From Methylococcaceae bacterium (GTDB taxonomy: Bacteria > Pseudomonadota > Gammaproteobacteria > Methylococcales > Methylomonadaceae), in the NCBI GenBank assembly GCA_037134135.1, contig JBAXMT010000001.1, positions 1 to 40,439 of the forward strand: a DNA stretch of 40,439 nucleotides. The letters run 5' to 3'. A program made the position numbers and the translations under genes. The notes beneath the pieces were generated by a model. That model saw only the letters and a program-made list of their open reading frames with translations, was not told the origin of the DNA and searched no databases. Shown piece by piece: positions 2,737 through 40,439 of this stretch (positions are counted from its first letter, which is position 1; every line of letters begins with the position of its first letter).

Positions 2737-3009
2737 TTGATACTTGAATGGAACGAAGAAAAACGCCAACTAACACTCGAAAAACGCAGCTTAGATTTTG
2801 CCGATGCGGCGCGAGTGTTTGACGGTGACGTGTTAGACATTGAAGACTCTCGCAAAGATTACGGCGAGTGTCGGATTGTGACATTCGGACATTTAAATGG
2901 TCGAATGATAACAATTACTTGGACTCAACGTGGCGATAAACGCCGAATAATTAGCATGAGAAAAGCAAATGAACGCGAAATTGAAAAATACAGCCCTTTT
3001 TTTAGATGA
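2737..3009 (+). CDS. brnT: BrnT-family toxin (DUF497)
   Basis: 90 aa. The profile is BrnT-like: FEWNEEK-type start (LEWNEEKRQLTLEKR), FADAARVFDG, R.ISMRKAN.RE. The start is probably the TTG at 2737. Confidence 0.8.
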   Translation: MILEWNEEKRQLTLEKRSLDFADAARVFDGDVLDIEDSRKDYGECRIVTFGHLNGRMITITWTQRGDKRRIISMRKANEREIEKYSPFFR

Positions 3010-3262
3010 TGACTGGATTGACGAAGATGATGCGCCTGAGTTTTCAGACGAGCAGCTTGAAACGTTGAATATGACATTTAAGCACCGTGACAAAGTGATT
3101 TGTGAAGCCAAAGGATTGAGTGCATTGCGTGAAAAAATGTGTGAACTCAATAACCAAAAACAAACCATCAAGCTCATTCGCTTTAAACAACGTGGCGTTC
3201 AAATCCGCCAGCAACTCGCTCAAATGCGACAAATGATGATGCAACGCCAACAGGTGGCTTGA
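2969..3262 (+). CDS. brnA: BrnA-like antitoxin (DUF4415-like)
   Basis: It sits immediately after, and overlaps, brnT. It has the acidic DDWIDEDDAPEFSDEQ segment typical of DUF4415/BrnA and a C-terminal FKQRGVQIRQQLAQMR resembling the BrnA G.GYQTRIN..LR helix. The exact start is uncertain (ATG 2969 or TTG 2981). Confidence 0.6.
   Translation: MNAKLKNTALFLDDDWIDEDDAPEFSDEQLETLNMTFKHRDKVICEAKGLSALREKMCELNNQKQTIKLIRFKQRGVQIRQQLAQMRQMMMQRQQVA
3174..3236. repeat. 63-bp direct repeat, copy 2 (3' end of brnA)
   Basis: See copy 1 at 2608..2670. Confidence 0.92.
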
Positions 3263-3315: not shown

Positions 3316-5847
3316 ATGAACAACAAAAAATTATTATTCGCAGCCATTTTGTTGGCATTGGCAAAGTCTGCTTTGGGCATTGAAGTTGAACCGAATAATG
3401 ATTCAAGCAGAGCAAACAAACTTGGTAAAGAAAACGTCGGCAAACTCAATCGCGCAAGCGATGTTGATTTTTTCTCAATCGATTCGTGCGTGAAAGACGA
3501 TAAAAAACAATGCGTCAAATACACCGCCGATGATGAAAAATTAAATCCTTTAAACAAAGCGGGAACAGATAAACGCCGCGAAGAAGTATCGATTTCATTC
3601 ACTTGCAGCAATAAATCATCGGCAAGTCCCAGCGGTTGGTTTTTAGGTGTTCATGATTCAAACGGCGAATTGCAAGAAACCTATCCTGTCAAACCAGACG
3701 ATTGCATTATCAGTGACAAAACATCAGGCGCATTCAATTTTAAGTTCCCAAGTTTAGACAGCCCAAATTATTACGTTTCAGTCGTTGCCGATTGCCAAGT
3801 TCCAATTTATAACACCATCGCAGACCCAAAAGACCCAACAAAAACCATCGTCAGTATCAATAAATTTGTTGCGGCAGCGTTAACAACAATAAAAGATATT
3901 ACCGCTGCTAAAAAAGAAATTAGTAACGCGCAAACAGAAATTGAGAATTTTAAAACTAAGCTGCTCCCACCAACGTTATTTGAAGTTATCAGCTCAAATG
4001 CACATATCAAAAATTTAAATGACGCAATCACATTAGCCAATGACATTACAAGCGTTGCTTCACCGAATTTAACTGCCGCAACAAATATCACTGCCGCTAT
4101 ATCAACAGCAAAAGCAGTTAGCATTGCTGCGAAAGTTGAGAGTCATTACATCGAGAGATGGCAAATCGTTCTTGATGCAAAAGATGTAGCAAATAATCCA
4201 GCTATTCAAAAAGCCATTGAAGCAGCCGATGCAGCACTTGCAACTGCAACAACTAATGCTACTCAAGCTGCAACAGCTGCAACGGCTGCTGGTCAAGCAT
4301 TAACCAATGCTACCGCAGACCGTACTACTGCAAGAGCTAGAGAGCCACAAATTCCCGCAGATATTACTGCTGCAAATAATGCAATTGAAGCTGCAAATCT
4401 TGCAAAAACAGGTTTAGCTGATGGAACTGGTACAGCTGGGACAGATGGTGCAAAAATCACTGCTGACCTTGCAAAAACAAATGCTGAAAATGTAAAAAAA
4501 GCCGCTGATAATGTTAAAACCGTTGCTGATAAAGCAGTCACGGATGCACTCGCTGAGTTTAATACTGCAACAACTCGTCAAACCGAAGCCACTGCAGCTT
4601 TAGCCGATGCCGTTAAATTCTTAAATGACACGGTTAACGCCAACATTCTTGCGGCGAATACCGCTGAAAACTTCGGCAAACGGTTTGATTCGGCGTGCAA
4701 AGATAATTACAACGTTGGCATTTACACGATAAAAGATAATCCCGACAACGAAATTAAACGCCTTGAAGACATTACGTCGAAAGAACAAAAAAATCTCGGT
4801 TTAGAACAATCGGGGCAAATTAGTTCAATTGATGACATGGATATTTACGTTGTCGATAGCGACGGCACAACCGACGTGCCATTATTGTTTACTTGTTCAG
4901 CATTGGCAGCGCGACAAACGAACGATTGGAAAGTGAGCATTTACAACGACGCGAATGGCTTAGTCAGTTCAACATTAGTTAACGGCAGTTCATGTGGTTC
5001 GGTATTTATCGGCGACAAAGGCGGGCAAAGTGTCAAATTGCCCAAAGGTTCTCAACGTTATTATTTAGCCGTTGAATCAGCGTGCGCGTCCTCGACGAAA
5101 AAAGATTGTGTTGTTGATACGTCTGAATACAGCATTTTGCGTGACGTGGATAAAGTTTATTCGGGTAAATTAGCTAAAAAAACGATCGACGTAAAAACAA
5201 AAATTTCTGATTTAAAACTCACGAATTGTGGTTTGAACAATAACGCCGTCATTTCGATTCATACTGAAAATGTGAATTTAGTTGATGCCGTAAAATTACC
5301 GATTAACGTGCAAATCGGTAGCACCGCGTGTCGAATTTTAACGCCTGAATTATTAGCAAAAGATACGATTATCGGCAGTGTCGCCGATGCCTCTGAAATC
5401 ATCGATTCAACAGCGAAAACAAAAGACAGCGCAGCGATTACGCTTTCTGATTGTGGTAATGATGCTAAATCAAAAGTCACGCTGACTGGTTCACGATTAG
5501 ATTTAGTGAATTTAAATCCCAATGCTGAAACAGATTCGGTGGTTATTCCCATTAAAGTGAATATCGGTGATTTTAAATGTGAAACTCAAGAAGTGTTTTA
5601 TATCACACCCGATGCGAAAGGCACTGGCGCGGTTTATAGCAACCTTTCACCTGAAGACGTATCTCAGTTGCCGACGACTTCGACAACTTCGACAACGCCG
5701 ACAACACCGACAATTTCGACAATTTCGACAATTTCGACAAAACCGACGACTTCGACAACACCGACAACTTCGACAACTACAGCCCCTTGTTTTTACAGTA
5801 GTTGCGTAGAACCTTCGACAGATGCCCCCGTTTTTGGAGCGAAATAA
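3316..5847 (+). CDS. Large secreted Cys-rich protein: signal peptide, PPC-like module interrupted by an approximately 300-aa Ala/Thr-rich helical insert, second PPC-like module, shared beta-rich module, Thr/Ser/Pro linker, short Cys tail
   Basis: Signal peptide MNNKKLLFAAILLALAKSALG. EPNNDSSRANKLG...DVDFFSI matches the pre-peptidase C-terminal (PPC) motif EPN[ND]..A..l....D.D.f. The protein is paralogous to the next gene. Confidence 0.85.
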   Translation: MNNKKLLFAAILLALAKSALGIEVEPNNDSSRANKLGKENVGKLNRASDVDFFSIDSCVKDDKKQCVKYTADDEKLNPLNKAGTDKRREEVSISFTCSNKSSASPSGWFLGVHDSNGELQETYPVKPDDCIISDKTSGAFNFKFPSLDSPNYYVSVVADCQVPIYNTIADPKDPTKTIVSINKFVAAALTTIKDITAAKKEISNAQTEIENFKTKLLPPTLFEVISSNAHIKNLNDAITLANDITSVASPNLTAATNITAAISTAKAVSIAAKVESHYIERWQIVLDAKDVANNPAIQKAIEAADAALATATTNATQAATAATAAGQALTNATADRTTARAREPQIPADITAANNAIEAANLAKTGLADGTGTAGTDGAKITADLAKTNAENVKKAADNVKTVADKAVTDALAEFNTATTRQTEATAALADAVKFLNDTVNANILAANTAENFGKRFDSACKDNYNVGIYTIKDNPDNEIKRLEDITSKEQKNLGLEQSGQISSIDDMDIYVVDSDGTTDVPLLFTCSALAARQTNDWKVSIYNDANGLVSSTLVNGSSCGSVFIGDKGGQSVKLPKGSQRYYLAVESACASSTKKDCVVDTSEYSILRDVDKVYSGKLAKKTIDVKTKISDLKLTNCGLNNNAVISIHTENVNLVDAVKLPINVQIGSTACRILTPELLAKDTIIGSVADASEIIDSTAKTKDSAAITLSDCGNDAKSKVTLTGSRLDLVNLNPNAETDSVVIPIKVNIGDFKCETQEVFYITPDAKGTGAVYSNLSPEDVSQLPTTSTTSTTPTTPTISTISTISTKPTTSTTPTTSTTTAPCFYSSCVEPSTDAPVFGAK
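5671..5778 (+). repeat. Twelve tandem 9-bp units ([tc]cgac[ag]a[act][tgca]) encoding (P/S)T(T/I/K) triplets
   Basis: Read directly from the sequence: ccgacgact tcgacaact tcgacaacg ccgacaaca ccgacaatt (tcgacaatt x2) tcgacaaaa ccgacgact tcgacaaca ccgacaact tcgacaact. The units are in frame in the 3316..5847 CDS. Confidence 0.95.
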
Positions 5848-31180: not shown

Positions 31181-31504
31181 TTATCTTTCTAGTAACGCCA
31201 ATTTACCTTCTTTACCGTTCCATTCATCCGCGTCTGGCATTGCATCTTGAACGTCAGTAATGATAGGCCAAATTTTTGATAATTCAGCATTCAACGCTGC
31301 GAATTGTTCTTGACCTTCTGGTAATTCATCTTCAGCGTGAATGGCATTTGCAGGACATTCTGGTTCACACAAAGTACAGTCAATACACTCGTCAGGATCA
31401 ATGACTAAGAAGTTTGGACCAACATGGAAGCAATCAACAGGACATACATCGACACAATCGGTAAATTTACATTTAATGCAATTTTCAGTAACAACAAAAG
31501 CCAT
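31181..31504 (-). CDS. fdxA: 7Fe ferredoxin (Azotobacter FdI type, [3Fe-4S][4Fe-4S])
   Basis: [24 protein letters not shown] ... CIDC..CEPECP cysteine pattern in a 107-aa product. Confidence 0.93.
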
Positions 31505-31567: not shown

Positions 31568-31996
31568 TTACTGCTTACCAAATAAATGCGCGGCTTGAGG
31601 TGGTGCTTTTTGCTGTAAACAATGATACGCCGCGTTTTCATATTTAATCGTTAACGATTGAGCATTTTCATGTTCTGTTAAAAATTTCTCTGCTTCAATC
31701 GCGGTTAAATCTTTCATCATAAATGTTGAAATACATTCACAGGCTTTGCTAACTCTTGATTTATCATTATCAGGATTAGCTGAATTTTTTAACTCACGTT
31801 GTACACATTGATTTTCAAATGTTTTTTCAAATTTTTGCTTGTCGTCGTCACTTACCTTTGCACCAAGTAACGTGTGACTAATCGGTGTTTTTTGAGCTAC
31901 TTTATTTGTTGCAGGTGCTTTTTCATCGGAACAGCCGACAATCAATGCAAGGCTTAAAACAGCAACGTACATTTTTTTAATAGGATATTTTTTCAT
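31568..31996 (-). CDS. Hypothetical lipoprotein
   Basis: Lipobox LIVGC after a hydrophobic signal segment. I did not recognise any family. Confidence 0.6.
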   Translation of the reverse strand: MKKYPIKKMYVAVLSLALIVGCSDEKAPATNKVAQKTPISHTLLGAKVSDDDKQKFEKTFENQCVQRELKNSANPDNDKSRVSKACECISTFMMKDLTAIEAEKFLTEHENAQSLTIKYENAAYHCLQQKAPPQAAHLFGKQ

Positions 31997-32092: not shown

Positions 32093-32873
32093 ATGAAATC
32101 TGTTTATAGTCACTTACCTTATCAAGAATCTCTCACCGCCTTCCTCACATTCTGTCATCAAAAAAAATACCCGAGCAAAGTGGACATTATTAGAATTGGG
32201 GATGTTGGTGATCGGTTATTTTTTATCATTGAAGGCTCCGTCGCTATTCTTGCTGAAGATGAAGATGGTGAAGTCGGTCATGAGTTAGTTTTAACCTATT
32301 TGAACAAACATGAATTTATTGGTGAAATTGGAATTTTCAAAGGTTTAGAAACTCGCAAAGTCAATGTGCGAACCCGTGAGCCGTGTGTGTTAGCTGAAAT
32401 CAGTTATGTTCGATTTAAAGAGCTTTTGCGTAAAGAATTACTCTACTGTGCACCCGATATTTTATATTTAATCGGCGAACAATTATCAGGAAGATTGTTG
32501 GCAACTAGTACACCAAACTGTTAAAGATAGGGATTATAAAAAGCTGGTTTAGACTTTTAATCCTCAGTGATTTCAGCAAATCATGCCGCAAACTTAATCC
32601 CGTTTGTTTTCGGTTTGATGTACTAGTCGAAAATTATGTGAATTAGCATTTATCGATGTTGAAGGACGGATTGCTGGTGCATTACTGGATTTGTGTAAAT
32701 CCCCCGATGCCATTACACATCCCGATGGAATGCAGTTACATATTTCACGACAAGAACTTGGGCGGATTGTCGGGTGTTCGCGTGAAATGGCAGGGCGCGT
32801 ATTGAAAGAACTCGAACTCAAAGGCGCAATTGCATCTCATGGTAAAACGATTGTTGTCTACGGTACGCGCTAA
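32093..32873 (+). pseudogene. crp: CRP/Vfr-family cAMP receptor protein gene interrupted by a 118-bp insertion
   Basis: 32093..32509 encodes the cNMP-binding domain, colinear with E. coli CRP up to ...RLLATS. 32628..32873 encodes [33 protein letters not shown]...GCSRE..GR.LK.L...[13 protein letters not shown]. Removing 32510..32627 restores one in-frame ORF of about 220 aa. Confidence 0.87.
32510..32621. mobile_element. MITE-like non-autonomous element (112 bp) with 27-bp imperfect terminal inverted repeats, flanked by duplicated ACTAGT
   Basis: The left end ACACCAAACTGTTAAAGATAGGGATTA aligns with the reverse complement of the right end, ACATCAAACCGAAAACAAACGGGATTA, at 19/27 positions without gaps. 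Flanking ACTAGT lies at 32504-32509 and 32622-32627. The element has no coding capacity. Confidence 0.75.
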
Positions 32874-32903: not shown

Positions 32904-33758
32904 ATGACTTTTTCCACCGCTAAACAAGATGCGGACTATCACACTGCGCGATTGAAACACAATTCACAAATGCAATCGTCGGCTTATCGGTTGGCATATC
33001 ACGATTTTGATTTCATGATTCGCGATGAATTGCGTCCCGTGCGTTTGCAATTAGAATTATTGAAACCTGAACTTGCTTTTACTGAACATGGGATTGAATC
33101 AACGATTGTGATTTTCGGTAGTGCGCGAACACCTTCAGCCGAATCTGCACAGAATCAATTAAATTTGGCTCAACAAAATATCACTGCAAATCCAACAGAT
33201 ATTGAAAATCAGCAAGCCTTGAAACGCGCTGAACATGAAATGCAGAAAAGTTATTATTATGAACAAGCCCGCGAATTAGGTGTGTTGATTACTGAGAATA
33301 ATTTGAACGATAAGCAGTCTGTTTTTGTCATAACGGGTGGCGGAGCAGGTATTATGGAAGCCGCAAATCGTGGCGCATCGGAAGCGGGCGGTAAAAGTAT
33401 TGGTTTGAATATCGTGTTGCCGCATGAACAAATGCCTAATTCATACATTACGCCCGACTTGTGTTTTCAATTTCATTATTTTCCAATTCGCAAAATGCAC
33501 TTCATGATGCGAGCAAAAGCATTAATCGCGTTTCCTGGTGGTTTCGGAACATTGGACGAATTATTTGAAGCCTTAACGCTAATTCAATCAAAAAAAATGC
33601 ACCGTATTCCGATTATTTTATTTGGACAGCGTTATTGGAATCGAATTGTAAATTTTGATGCGTTAGTTGAAGAGGGCGTAATTTCATCTGCTGATTTGGA
33701 TTTGATTCAATATGCCGAAACGGCTGAACAAGCGTGGACGTTAATAAAAAATGTTTGA
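32904..33758 (+). CDS. LOG-family / TIGR00730 Rossmann-fold nucleotide-binding protein
   Basis: GGGAGIMEAANRGA and PGGFGTLDELFE motifs. Confidence 0.85.
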   Translation: MTFSTAKQDADYHTARLKHNSQMQSSAYRLAYHDFDFMIRDELRPVRLQLELLKPELAFTEHGIESTIVIFGSARTPSAESAQNQLNLAQQNITANPTDIENQQALKRAEHEMQKSYYYEQARELGVLITENNLNDKQSVFVITGGGAGIMEAANRGASEAGGKSIGLNIVLPHEQMPNSYITPDLCFQFHYFPIRKMHFMMRAKALIAFPGGFGTLDELFEALTLIQSKKMHRIPIILFGQRYWNRIVNFDALVEEGVISSADLDLIQYAETAEQAWTLIKNV

Positions 33759-39035: not shown

Positions 39036-39127
39036 GGAGAGTTGGCCGAGCGGCTGAAGGCGCTCCCCTGCTAAGGGAGTATGGGCTTTAACTCCCATCG
39101 AGGGTTCGAACCCCTCACTCTCCGCCA
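39036..39127 (+). tRNA. serV: tRNA-Ser (anticodon GCU), class II with long variable arm, CCA encoded
   Basis: Folded by hand: acceptor stem ggagagt/actctcc, 3-bp D stem, anticodon stem ctccc/gggag with loop cTGCTaa, long variable arm, and T arm gaggg-ttcgaac-ccctc. Its position after csrA matches the enterobacterial and pseudomonad arrangement. Confidence 0.95.
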
Positions 39128-40169
39128 CTATTGAAAGCCACTAATGCCAAACAAAATCCAAACAATGCCGCTTTTGGATAACCCAAAGTATTGATTTCGG
39201 AGTTAAAATGCCCCTCTATGCGCTGAAAAGCGGTTTCAATTCCCCAACGTTCCCGATACATTTCCGCGATTTTCAATGCGTCAGCAACAGTTTTGTCCAG
39301 ATTAGTCAAAATACGGATTTCATCATCCCCATTGCGCGTGTTCTCCTTCAATTTAACGACAATACGTCGTGCTATGTATTCAAAACCCATAGCAGATTTG
39401 AGCATTACCGATTGTTCAAAAACATCGCCTGTTTCGCTAAACCCAACAAATACAGGGTCGTAAAGCTCTACCACAGGTATTTGTTGATGCTCACGAACAA
39501 CGCCCCCCCCCGTTCTTGAATACCAAACAAAAAATCTTGCGTACAAAACAACTGTCTGCAATCCACAAATCCTTGTGCATGACGGTCAGCAACACTTTGT
39601 CGAGCAAGCTGCGTTCTTGGGCGTGTCCGTCTTCACACGGAAAAACGTCAATCGCCAGTTCCAATTGCGGATCAAACACCACCAGTGATTTTCCTGGCAA
39701 GGCACCTGATTTCGTGTCGCGCAATACTTTCAAGCGATGATGGCTCGCTTCGATGCAATTACCATCTAATAACTTTGTACGATAGCCTGGCAAAATAGCA
39801 GGTAATTCGCCCTTCATCTCCCGAATGATGGCTTCCGATTCTTGGGCGACGTAACGCACTAATGCTGCCGACGTTTCTATCTTCATCCCATTTAATTTGT
39901 TGTACAACGATGTTACCGAAACACTGATGTTTTTCTGAATTTCGATAGGCGACATGAACGCTTTCTCGTATCTGACAAACTACCTCCAGCATCAATGCGA
40001 CTACTGTTGAAAATAGCAGCTCGCTTGTATATTGCCGTCCTCGGTTTGCTTCAAACCAAATGTCCAATTTTTCTTCGTTTAATATCTGTTCAAGTAAGCC
40101 CTGAACCATCACTGTTACTGGACTTCTATGGATGAATTTTTGTAACACATTGCTGAATTCGTTAGTCAT
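39128..40169 (-). pseudogene. IS4-family DDE transposase remnant: two frameshifts and a 3' truncation at the tRNA-Ser boundary
   Basis: Three consecutive minus-strand ORFs (40169-39759, 39955-39491, 39561-39115) together read like one IS4-type transposase (LLDGNCIEA..., LWIAD, YRERWGIETAFQRIE.HFNSEINTLGYP). The last four codons (SGGE) are read out of the tRNA 3' end, and no terminal inverted repeat follows. Confidence 0.8.
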
Positions 40170-40439
40170 TGATATTTAAATTGCCCATTGTCCTCTAAAA
40201 ACACCTTGAAAGAGCTGCCTTTTACACTCGAATTATGAAATACTTTAACCTCGTTTCTTTTTTAAAAATACTGCCGCGCCGCCACAGAATGGTTCGACGC
40301 AACGGATAAACGAAGCTGCTGCCATTGCAACCAGCAATTCTCATTATGAAAACCGCTCGTGCTGTATAAAGGAAAACCGAGTGAAAAAAATGAAGATAAG
40401 CGATGGCATCACCATTTGAATCGAACAAAATATCAGCCC

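What the first reader, a model, noticed from the sequence alone, without database searches (positions are those of the whole stretch)
32093..32873. The global regulator CRP/Vfr is split by a 118-bp insertion, leaving a stand-alone cNMP-binding domain ORF
The upstream part (139 codons) is colinear with the E. coli CRP cAMP-binding domain and C-helix up to RLLATS. It then runs into the insert and stops after four codons (TPNC-stop at 32522-32524). The downstream part resumes exactly where CRP should continue, with [36 protein letters not shown] and the whole HTH through to [10 protein letters not shown], but in the +1 frame. Deleting 32510-32627 restores one uninterrupted ORF of about 220 codons, and both halves look undegraded, so the event is recent. 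There are three possible consequences: loss of cAMP-CRP control in this strain, a reversible on/off switch if the element excises precisely, or production of an effector-binding domain without DNA binding.
Basis: partly seen in the sequence, partly recalled or inferred. Interest (0 to 1): 0.7.

Follow-up and report, generated by a model that had tools for sequence, protein, structure and literature searches.

The report
Small transposon splits methanotroph crp gene
The cAMP-receptor regulator gene (crp/vfr) of an uncultured methane-oxidising bacterium is cut in two by a recently inserted 114-bp non-coding transposon (a MITE); this is an ordinary kind of gene knock-out, made a little more interesting because close relatives carry two other, unrelated mobile elements in the same gene.

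Summary
An ORF at 32093-32524 encodes CRP residues 1-139 plus TPNC-stop, and the rest of CRP follows in the +1 frame up to 32873. Removing 118 bp restores a 220-aa CRP. That protein is 100% identical to P0123, which intact genes encode in at least 7 other metagenome contigs of the same species (98.5-99.7% nt identity). All of those contigs have the empty site GCAACTAGTCGA.

The insert is a 114-bp MITE (32509-32622). It has imperfect terminal inverted repeats and a 4-bp target duplication, CTAG (32505-08 and 32623-26). Eight further full-length copies and one partial copy lie at unrelated loci, with duplications CTAG, GTAG or CTAC. Two of these, in metagenome SESD01, match the window's copy essentially exactly (100% and 99.2% aligned identity). 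The other six full copies and the partial one are in a Methylococcales MAG.

The locus is the syntenic crp orthologue (fdx, lipoprotein, crp, LOG). Both halves differ from the intact alleles only by 3-6 synonymous changes, so the insertion is very recent and polymorphic.

The most likely consequence is a null allele for DNA binding, possibly leaving a 143-aa cAMP-binding fragment. Nothing supports a dedicated reversible switch. The MITE family appears undescribed, and its parent IS was not found.

In sister lineages crp is also hit by an ISKra4-family IS and by an IS200/IS605-like element.

The parts
32093..32524 (+). 5' part of crp. It encodes CRP residues 1-139 (cNMP-binding domain and C-helix up to Thr-Ser), then 4 element-encoded codons (TPNC) and TAA.
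   Evidence: (PF00027 only)
32505..32508 (.). Left copy of the 4-bp target-site duplication, CTAG.
   Evidence: Empty sites in conspecific contigs have a single ACTAGT.
32509..32622 (.). 114-bp MITE, TACACCAAACTG...CGGTTTGATGTA, with no coding capacity. It folds into a long hairpin (-35.3 kcal/mol, z = -5.5).
   Evidence: Eight other full copies and one partial copy were found elsewhere. The two SESD01 copies match at 100% and 99.2% aligned identity, and the MAG copies at 84-90%.
32509..32536. Left terminal inverted repeat. It matches the right arm at 20 of 28 positions (my count from the arms), and at 10 of 12 for the terminal bases.
   Evidence: arms 32504-32536 and 32595-32627, 76% complementary including the palindromic ACTAGT
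32595..32622 (.). Right terminal inverted repeat. TTAATCCCGTTTGTTTTCGGTTTGATGTA is invariant in all copies.
32623..32626 (.). Right copy of the 4-bp target-site duplication, CTAG.
32627..32873 (+). 3' part of crp (residues 139/140-220: the rest of the C-helix, the hinge and the HTH), now in the +1 frame. There is no canonical start codon before TTG at 32691.
31568..31996 (-). Divergent 142-aa putative lipoprotein gene. Together with fdx (31181-31504, minus strand), it is the conserved upstream neighbour of crp in all relatives.
32904..33758 (+). LOG/TIGR00730-family gene, 30 nt downstream of crp and conserved there in relatives. It is possibly co-transcribed and so exposed to polar effects (inference).

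Best explanation
A non-autonomous DDE-type transposon (a MITE of 114 bp) was mobilised in trans by an unidentified transposase. It inserted into the only CTAG tetranucleotide of the chromosomal crp/vfr orthologue of an uncultured Methylococcales methanotroph and duplicated that CTAG.

The insertion sits exactly at the Thr-Ser codons of the C-helix, between the cAMP-binding and DNA-binding domains. Translation therefore ends after 139 CRP residues plus TPNC. The HTH domain is out of frame and has no usable start, so this allele cannot make a DNA-binding CRP. At most it yields a 143-aa cAMP-binding fragment.

The event is very recent and is a minority polymorphism: other members of the same species carry the intact gene and the empty site.

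Shown: the anatomy of the element, the target duplication, the other copies, the empty sites, orthology and recency. Inferred: loss of CRP function, the fate of the fragment, possible polar or RNA-processing effects of the hairpin, and an IS5-like transposase as the mobiliser.

(2) The repaired protein equals P0123. Loci L092-L098, which carry it, are 98.5-99.7% identical to the window. Their alignments break exactly at 32509 and 32622 with a 6-nt ACTAGT overlap:

(3) Nine full-length copies with perfectly duplicated 4-mers (CTAG x3, GTAG/CTAC x6) at unrelated, mostly intergenic sites, and 29 invariant bases at the right end:

(5) Recency. There are 3-6 nt differences from the intact alleles and all are synonymous. 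dN/dS is 0.03-0.05 in both halves against L001 and L002.

(7) There is no start codon for the C-terminal part before TTG at 32691.

(8) CTAG is about 7-fold depleted in the window (20 found against 145 expected). The only CTAG in crp is the one that was hit. Sister lineages have ACGAGT or ACCAGC at that position.

(9) CTAG is the classical 4-bp duplication of IS5 (PMC10379815).
Against: - The autonomous parent IS was not found. The pattern scan of genome contigs found only MITE copies. Plasmids and phages gave nothing. The viral scans gave only chance hits.
- Read-level support for the occupied allele cannot be inspected.
- The 143-aa product is on record for only one contig, the window itself, so the allele is rare and could be a minority variant in the sampled population.
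- Loss of function is inferred from the sequence, not measured.
- A second crp-like gene elsewhere in the genome cannot be excluded. None is present in the window.
Confidence: 0.9

Rival explanations
1. Adaptive loss. Inactivation of crp is favoured in this methanotroph clade, and mobile elements are merely the commonest mutational route. On this view the MITE allele is one of several independently selected crp knock-outs rather than a neutral or deleterious accident.
For: The same 90% protein cluster contains two more insertion alleles.
- An ISKra4-family IS sits at codon ~70 with a 9-bp duplication ATTTGAACA. The left junction is on 8 contigs and the right junction on 4.
- An IS200/IS605-like element sits just 3' of TTAC at codon 217, on 6+1 contigs.

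Two controls point the same way. Ten neighbouring genes (2,634 codons) show only contig-edge or alternative-start truncations. Ten sister CRP clusters, with 56 members, are almost all 218-220 aa.
Against: - The counts are contigs, not independent populations, and many come from the same sample series.
- The comparison is post hoc.
- The codon-217 insertion replaces only the last 3 residues and may leave CRP functional.
- Intact alleles remain the majority, with strong purifying selection (dN/dS 0.03-0.05).
- An IS-rich genome with a non-essential target would give the same picture.
Confidence: 0.25
2. Programmed reversible switch. The element excises precisely and so toggles crp ON and OFF, as a form of phase variation.
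For: Deleting the element plus one CTAG restores the gene exactly. The 4-bp direct repeats lie at the base of a strong hairpin, a geometry that favours slippage-type precise excision. Occupied and empty alleles coexist within the species.
Against: - The element encodes nothing.
- Its other copies are ordinary, mostly intergenic insertions.
- Every outgroup and every other conspecific contig is empty, which a single recent insertion explains most simply.
- No footprint alleles were seen.
- Precise excision of bacterial IS and MITE elements is generally rare (my own knowledge).
Confidence: 0.04
3. Assembly artefact. The 118 bp was spliced into crp by the metagenome assembler.
For: The window is a metagenome-type contig. 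The occupied allele is recorded only once. Repeats are a common cause of mis-assembly.
Against: A mis-join would not place one complete element, with both ends, flanked by a perfect CTAG duplication at a pre-existing CTAG while leaving the flanks colinear to the base.
Confidence: 0.03
4. Full-length CRP is still made, either by ribosomal bypassing from the first ACT-AGT to the second 118 nt downstream, or by RNA-level removal of the hairpin.
For: Identical ACTAGT hexamers lie at take-off and landing positions at the base of a stable stem.
Against: The gap is more than twice that of any bypass known to me (about 50 nt in T4 gene 60; my own knowledge). No stop codon directly follows the take-off site, and no intron-like family matches. 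The hexamer repeat is fully explained by the CTAG duplication plus the element's T...A termini.
Confidence: 0.01

Closest known systems
Bacterial MITEs (for example MITEAba12 of Acinetobacter, Correia/CREE elements of Neisseria, RUP of Streptococcus pneumoniae, ERIC)
   Same: About 100-150 bp and non-coding, with terminal inverted repeats, a target-site duplication, many dispersed copies, a hairpin-forming transcript, and the ability to disrupt genes.
   Different: No sequence similarity to any annotated record searched and none to any Rfam family. The duplication is 4 bp, (C/G)TA(G/C), rather than TA (Correia) or 9 bp (MITEAba12; my own knowledge). The host clade is Methylococcales, for which the paper library holds no MITE description.
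IS5 (IS5 family, IS5 group)
   Same: A 4-bp target duplication at CTAG-type sites (PMC10379815).
   Different: No transposase gene with matching ends was found, and the ends (TACACCAAAC...) were not compared with ISfinder entries. The link is by mechanism and analogy only.
E. coli CRP, P. aeruginosa Vfr and Xanthomonas CLP
   Same: The restored 220-aa protein is colinear with them at E about 1e-63, with a cNMP-binding domain and a C-terminal HTH ending [10 protein letters not shown].
   Different: Here the gene is interrupted at the C-helix Thr-Ser codons. The regulon and effector in methanotrophs are unknown.
IS-mediated inactivation of global regulators in natural or evolving populations (for example spontaneous vfr, rpoS or lasR loss-of-function variants; my own knowledge)
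   Same: A pleiotropic regulator is knocked out as a within-species polymorphism, and here three different elements hit the same gene.
   Different: No phenotype or fitness data exist, and the evidence comes from metagenome contigs only.

Membership tests
CRP/Vfr (cAMP receptor protein, CRP-FNR superfamily) | N-terminal cyclic-nucleotide-binding domain | tested here: met
   PF00027, E = 1e-15, in both the restored ORF and the 143-aa ORF
CRP/Vfr (cAMP receptor protein, CRP-FNR superfamily) | C-terminal Crp-type HTH, colinear over the full length with characterised CRP/Vfr | tested here: met
   PF13545 and PF00325 are present only after the 118 bp is removed. Full-length matches to Vfr, CRP and CLP structures have E about 1e-63.
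CRP/Vfr (cAMP receptor protein, CRP-FNR superfamily) | Orthologous locus, not a paralogue or decayed duplicate | tested here: met
   The order fdx, 142-aa gene, crp, LOG, mscK is the same as around intact 220-aa genes in relatives. No second copy lies in the window. The rest of the genome is not available.
CRP/Vfr (cAMP receptor protein, CRP-FNR superfamily) | cAMP-dependent DNA binding and transcription activation | not testable with these tools
   This needs biochemistry. It is predicted to be lost in this allele because the HTH is out of frame.
MITE (non-autonomous DDE-transposon derivative) | Short, non-coding element with terminal inverted repeats | tested here: met
   The element is 114 bp. 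Its arms match at 20 of 28 positions, and at 10 of 12 for the terminal bases (my count from the arms).
MITE (non-autonomous DDE-transposon derivative) | Target-site duplication of fixed length at every copy | tested here: met
   A 4-bp duplication is perfect in 9 of 9 full copies, with three different 4-mers.
MITE (non-autonomous DDE-transposon derivative) | Multiple copies at unrelated loci, with empty sites available | tested here: met
   There are 9 full copies and 1 partial copy across the window, metagenome SESD01 and MAG CAZLGN01. Empty crp sites occur in at least 11 contigs.
MITE (non-autonomous DDE-transposon derivative) | An autonomous IS with the same ends that supplies the transposase | tested here: inconclusive
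   None was found in the genome, metagenome, viral, plasmid or phage searches. The window's own genome beyond this contig could not be searched.
IS5-family derivative | 4-bp duplication at a CTAG-like target | tested here: met
   Duplications are CTAG, GTAG or CTAC. IS5 duplicates CTAG (PMC10379815).
IS5-family derivative | Ends homologous to those of an IS5-family member, or a linked DDE transposase | not tested
   No ISfinder-type library was available and no parent element was recovered.

The most novel reading that the evidence does not exclude
crp is a recurrent target of insertional inactivation in one clade of uncultured lake-type Methylococcales. Three unrelated mobile elements interrupt the same gene in closely related lineages: the 114-bp MITE, an ISKra4-family IS and an IS200/IS605-like element. 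Neighbouring genes and the crp genes of sister clades are clean. This would point to repeated natural selection for switching off the cAMP-CRP regulon in wild methanotroph populations, or for a mixed ON/OFF population.
Probability: 0.2. Interest if true: 0.55.

Novelty: new member of a known kind. Interest (0 to 1): 0.3.

Why it matters
The finding gives a clean, fully resolved example of a MITE transposing recently in an uncultured methanotroph, with occupied and empty alleles, the target duplication and identical sister copies all in hand. It also defines a MITE family that seems not to be described.

It flags that this contig's organism probably lacks functional cAMP-CRP control. That matters for anyone inferring regulation or motility, pili or carbon-response traits from this MAG.

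If the recurrence of independent insertions in crp proves to be selected, it would be a natural-population example of adaptive loss of a global regulator in an environmentally important methane oxidiser. That can be tested directly by mapping reads in the existing metagenome series.

Tried and rejected
(1) Parent IS.
- A degenerate TIR pattern in genome contigs found only 7 MITE loci in one MAG.
- The invariant right end in metagenome contigs found only two more MITE copies.
- Two viral-contig scans gave 78 chance 16-mer hits and nothing for the left end. The best extended hit, L073, is coding sequence without a partner repeat.
- BLAST of the element against plasmids and phages gave nothing usable.

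(2) Known RNA or intron families. Rfam gave no match at gathering or E-value thresholds.

(3) A promoter or terminator carried by the element. There is no terminator-like site. There is one promoter-like hexamer pair on the minus strand (32560 to 32533, 10 of 12), which is no more than the shuffles give, so it is not taken as functional.

(4) Re-initiation of the HTH half. The first start codon in frame is TTG at 32691, without an obvious ribosome-binding site, so this was rejected as a route to functional protein.

(5) Ribosomal bypass or splicing was considered and rejected (see rival explanations).

(6) A 2-bp TA duplication of the IS630/Tc1 type was rejected. The bases flanking TA co-vary on the two sides in 9 of 9 copies.

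(7) Literature. The held library has no paper on MITEs in Methylococcales.

(8) An exact look-up of the 143-aa product returned nothing, although the cluster listing later showed it on the window's own contig.

Full report
**Observation**

- An ATG-initiated ORF at 32093-32524 encodes 139 residues of a CRP-type protein ending ...GEQLSGRLLATS, then TPNC and TAA.
- From 32628 the +1 frame reads [17 protein letters not shown]...[10 protein letters not shown] to 32873.
- Deleting 118 bp in any register from 32504-32621 to 32511-32628 gives one 220-aa ORF. The register is free because the hexamer ACTAGT is present on both sides.
- The restored protein has a cNMP-binding domain (PF00027) and Crp-type HTH domains (PF13545, PF00325). 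The 143-aa ORF keeps only the former.
- The restored protein matches solved Vfr, E. coli CRP and Xanthomonas CLP over its full length at E about 1e-63.
- It aligns without a gap across the junction to 220-aa CRPs of Methylococcales.

**What the insert is**

One search reports inverted-repeat arms at 32504-32536 and 32595-32627. A degenerate pattern built from the two arms found seven loci in a single Methylococcales-type MAG, CAZLGN01, which its record labels 'uncultured Methylomagnum sp.'. The invariant right end found two more loci in metagenome SESD01.

BLAST and alignment show full-length copies. The MAG copies are 84-90% identical to the window's. The two SESD01 copies align at 100% and 99.2% identity and show no differences within the element.

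In all nine full copies the four bases outside TACACCAAAC...GGTTTGATGTA are the same on both sides, and they differ between copies:
- CTAG in the window, L013 and L006;
- GTAG in L012, L009, L005, L011 and L007;
- CTAC in L010.

This fixes the element at window 32509-32622 (114 bp) with a 4-bp target-site duplication at 32505-32508 and 32623-32626. It also rules out a 2-bp TA duplication. The element has no coding capacity. As a single strand it folds into a long hairpin (-35.3 kcal/mol, z = -5.5). Its other copies are mostly intergenic.

It is therefore a MITE. A 4-bp duplication at CTAG-like sites is what IS5 does (PMC10379815). However, no autonomous element with these ends was found, so the family assignment is an analogy and not a tested membership. 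No Rfam family matches. The paper library holds nothing on MITEs in Methylococcales.

**Is this the real crp, and is the insertion real and recent?**

The window is a complete public contig of 40,439 bp. The gene order fdx (107 aa), 142-aa gene, crp, LOG-family gene, mscK-type channel is identical around intact 220-aa crp genes in relatives. So this is the orthologous locus and not a decayed duplicate. No second crp lies in the window. The rest of the genome is not available.

The 90% cluster of the closest homologue contains P0123, which is 100% identical to the restored protein. Seven contigs carrying it, from four JGI and three Logan samples (L092-L098), are 98.5-99.7% identical to the window in the flanks. 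Their alignments break exactly at 32509 and 32622 with a 6-nt overlap, so they have the empty site GCAACTAGTCGA.

Within crp the window differs from these alleles by 3-6 nucleotides, all synonymous. Against the next lineage (L001 and L002, 90-91% nt identity), dN/dS is 0.03-0.05 in both halves.

A complete element with a perfect duplication of a pre-existing CTAG is not what an assembly error produces. The insertion is therefore genuine, very recent and polymorphic within the species. The occupied allele is on record only for this contig.

**Target**

CTAG is strongly depleted in the window, with 20 occurrences against about 145 expected. crp contains exactly one, and it is the one that was hit. 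The site exists because this species uses ACT-AGT for the Thr-Ser pair, where sister lineages use ACG-AGT or ACC-AGC.

**Consequence (inferred)**

The break lies at the C-helix Thr-Ser pair, between the effector-binding and DNA-binding domains. The HTH half has no in-frame canonical start before TTG at 32691 and no obvious ribosome-binding site. This allele therefore cannot make a DNA-binding CRP.

A 143-aa cAMP-binding fragment may be produced. From my own knowledge, proteolytic N-terminal cores of E. coli CRP are stable and bind cAMP. Whether the fragment accumulates here is unknown.

The hairpin might affect mRNA stability or the expression of the LOG gene 30 nt downstream. No terminator-like site was found, and only one promoter-like match on the opposite strand, which is no more than chance gives.

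A dedicated reversible switch is not supported. Precise excision between the CTAG repeats is possible in principle, but a single recent insertion explains the data.

**Beyond the finding**

The same protein cluster holds other interrupted alleles.

(a) P0129 and P0131. In a lineage about 91-95% identical in DNA, a 1.4-kb IS interrupts crp at codons 69-71.
- It encodes a 436-aa ISKra4-family transposase (NF033572, E = 8e-61).
- Its 27-bp ends begin GGGTGCGATTAAAAGTGTGGGG.
- It is flanked by a 9-bp duplication, ATTTGAACA.
- Joining the two junctions restores ...TYLNKHEF....

(b) P0130 and P0132. In a lineage 96.7% identical to the window, foreign DNA follows ...GTT-TAC at codon 217.
- It carries a hairpin.
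- On the other strand it encodes the peptide GGAPLSVLKQYIEQQ. Its only matches in the PDB are the C-terminus of the ISHp608 (IS200/IS605) transposase (E = 1.2e-3).
- Intact alleles of that lineage have GTTTAC|GG at the site, so the insertion is just 3' of TTAC. From my own knowledge, TTAC is the IS608 target.
- Only one junction is available.

(c) P0134 may be a fourth case, but no DNA could be fetched.

As crude controls, the clusters of ten neighbouring genes show only edge or alternative-start truncations. Ten sister CRP clusters are almost uniformly 218-220 aa. This suggests that crp of this particular clade is hit unusually often. But the counts are contigs from overlapping sample series, the comparison is post hoc, and the codon-217 allele may still be functional.

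**Verdict**

The mechanism is an ordinary one: a MITE insertion creating a null allele of a global regulator. The element is a new member of a known kind. The only angle with wider interest is the possible recurrent inactivation of crp in wild methanotroph populations, which read mapping could test.

Noticed in passing
L099:4215-5621 and L100:4215-5621 (left junction at 4214/4215); L101:1-137 (right end): In a sister lineage, crp is interrupted at codons 69-71 by an ISKra4-family IS of about 1.4 kb. It encodes a 436-aa transposase, has 27-bp inverted ends GGGTGCGATTAAAAGTGTGGGG... and a 9-bp duplication ATTTGAACA. Downstream of the IS the contigs diverge, so the assemblies are probably chimeric across IS copies.
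   Followed up: yes
L102:1612-1748: In a lineage 96.7% identical to the window, crp is interrupted after codon 217, just 3' of TTAC. The inserted element has a terminal hairpin. Its reverse strand encodes the C-terminus of an IS200/IS605 (ISHp608-like) TnpA. The last 3 residues of CRP are replaced by 22 foreign ones, and only one junction is available.
   Followed up: partly
protein P0134 (109 aa; contig of 1,807 bp in ERZ1426712, no DNA held): A crp fragment starts at residue 112, and its gene is called 107 nt into the contig, not at the contig edge. This suggests yet another interruption or a frameshift upstream. It could not be checked.
   Followed up: partly
window, whole: CTAG is about 7-fold under-represented (20 found against about 145 expected from composition). 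(C/G)TA(G/C) is about 3-fold under-represented (179 against 580). The MITE's target is therefore rare in this genome.
   Followed up: partly
window:3316-5847 and window:5822-8470 (+): Two adjacent, overlapping large ORFs (843 and 882 aa) have no Pfam match at E <= 1e-5. They lie between a HigB/Gp49-like toxin gene region and trkA.
   Followed up: no
window:2035-2448 (+): An ORF for a Gp49/HigB-like toxin domain (PF05973) lies next to short unassigned ORFs (2737-3262). This may be a toxin-antitoxin pair downstream of dnaX, ybaB and a HIT gene.
   Followed up: no
window:39036-39127 (+) and 39115-40439: tRNA-Ser(GCT) is followed to the contig end by short minus-strand ORFs with no Pfam match. The contig ending just after a tRNA may mark an integration hotspot or a repeat.
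   Followed up: no
L012:4082-5765 (-): An IS607-type pair, a 190-aa serine-recombinase-like TnpA and a 377-aa TnpB-like ORF, lies about 1 kb from a MITE copy in the SESD01 contig. The assignment is by eye from the translations and was not run against a profile library.
   Followed up: no
L013:196-309: The MITE copy that is 100% identical to the window's lies at the 3' end region of a long minus-strand ORF. Whether it truncates that gene was not checked.
   Followed up: no
L101:721-3294: In the ISKra4-bearing lineage the gene after crp is clpB rather than the LOG-family gene, so the downstream synteny differs there, or the contig is rearranged at the IS.
   Followed up: no
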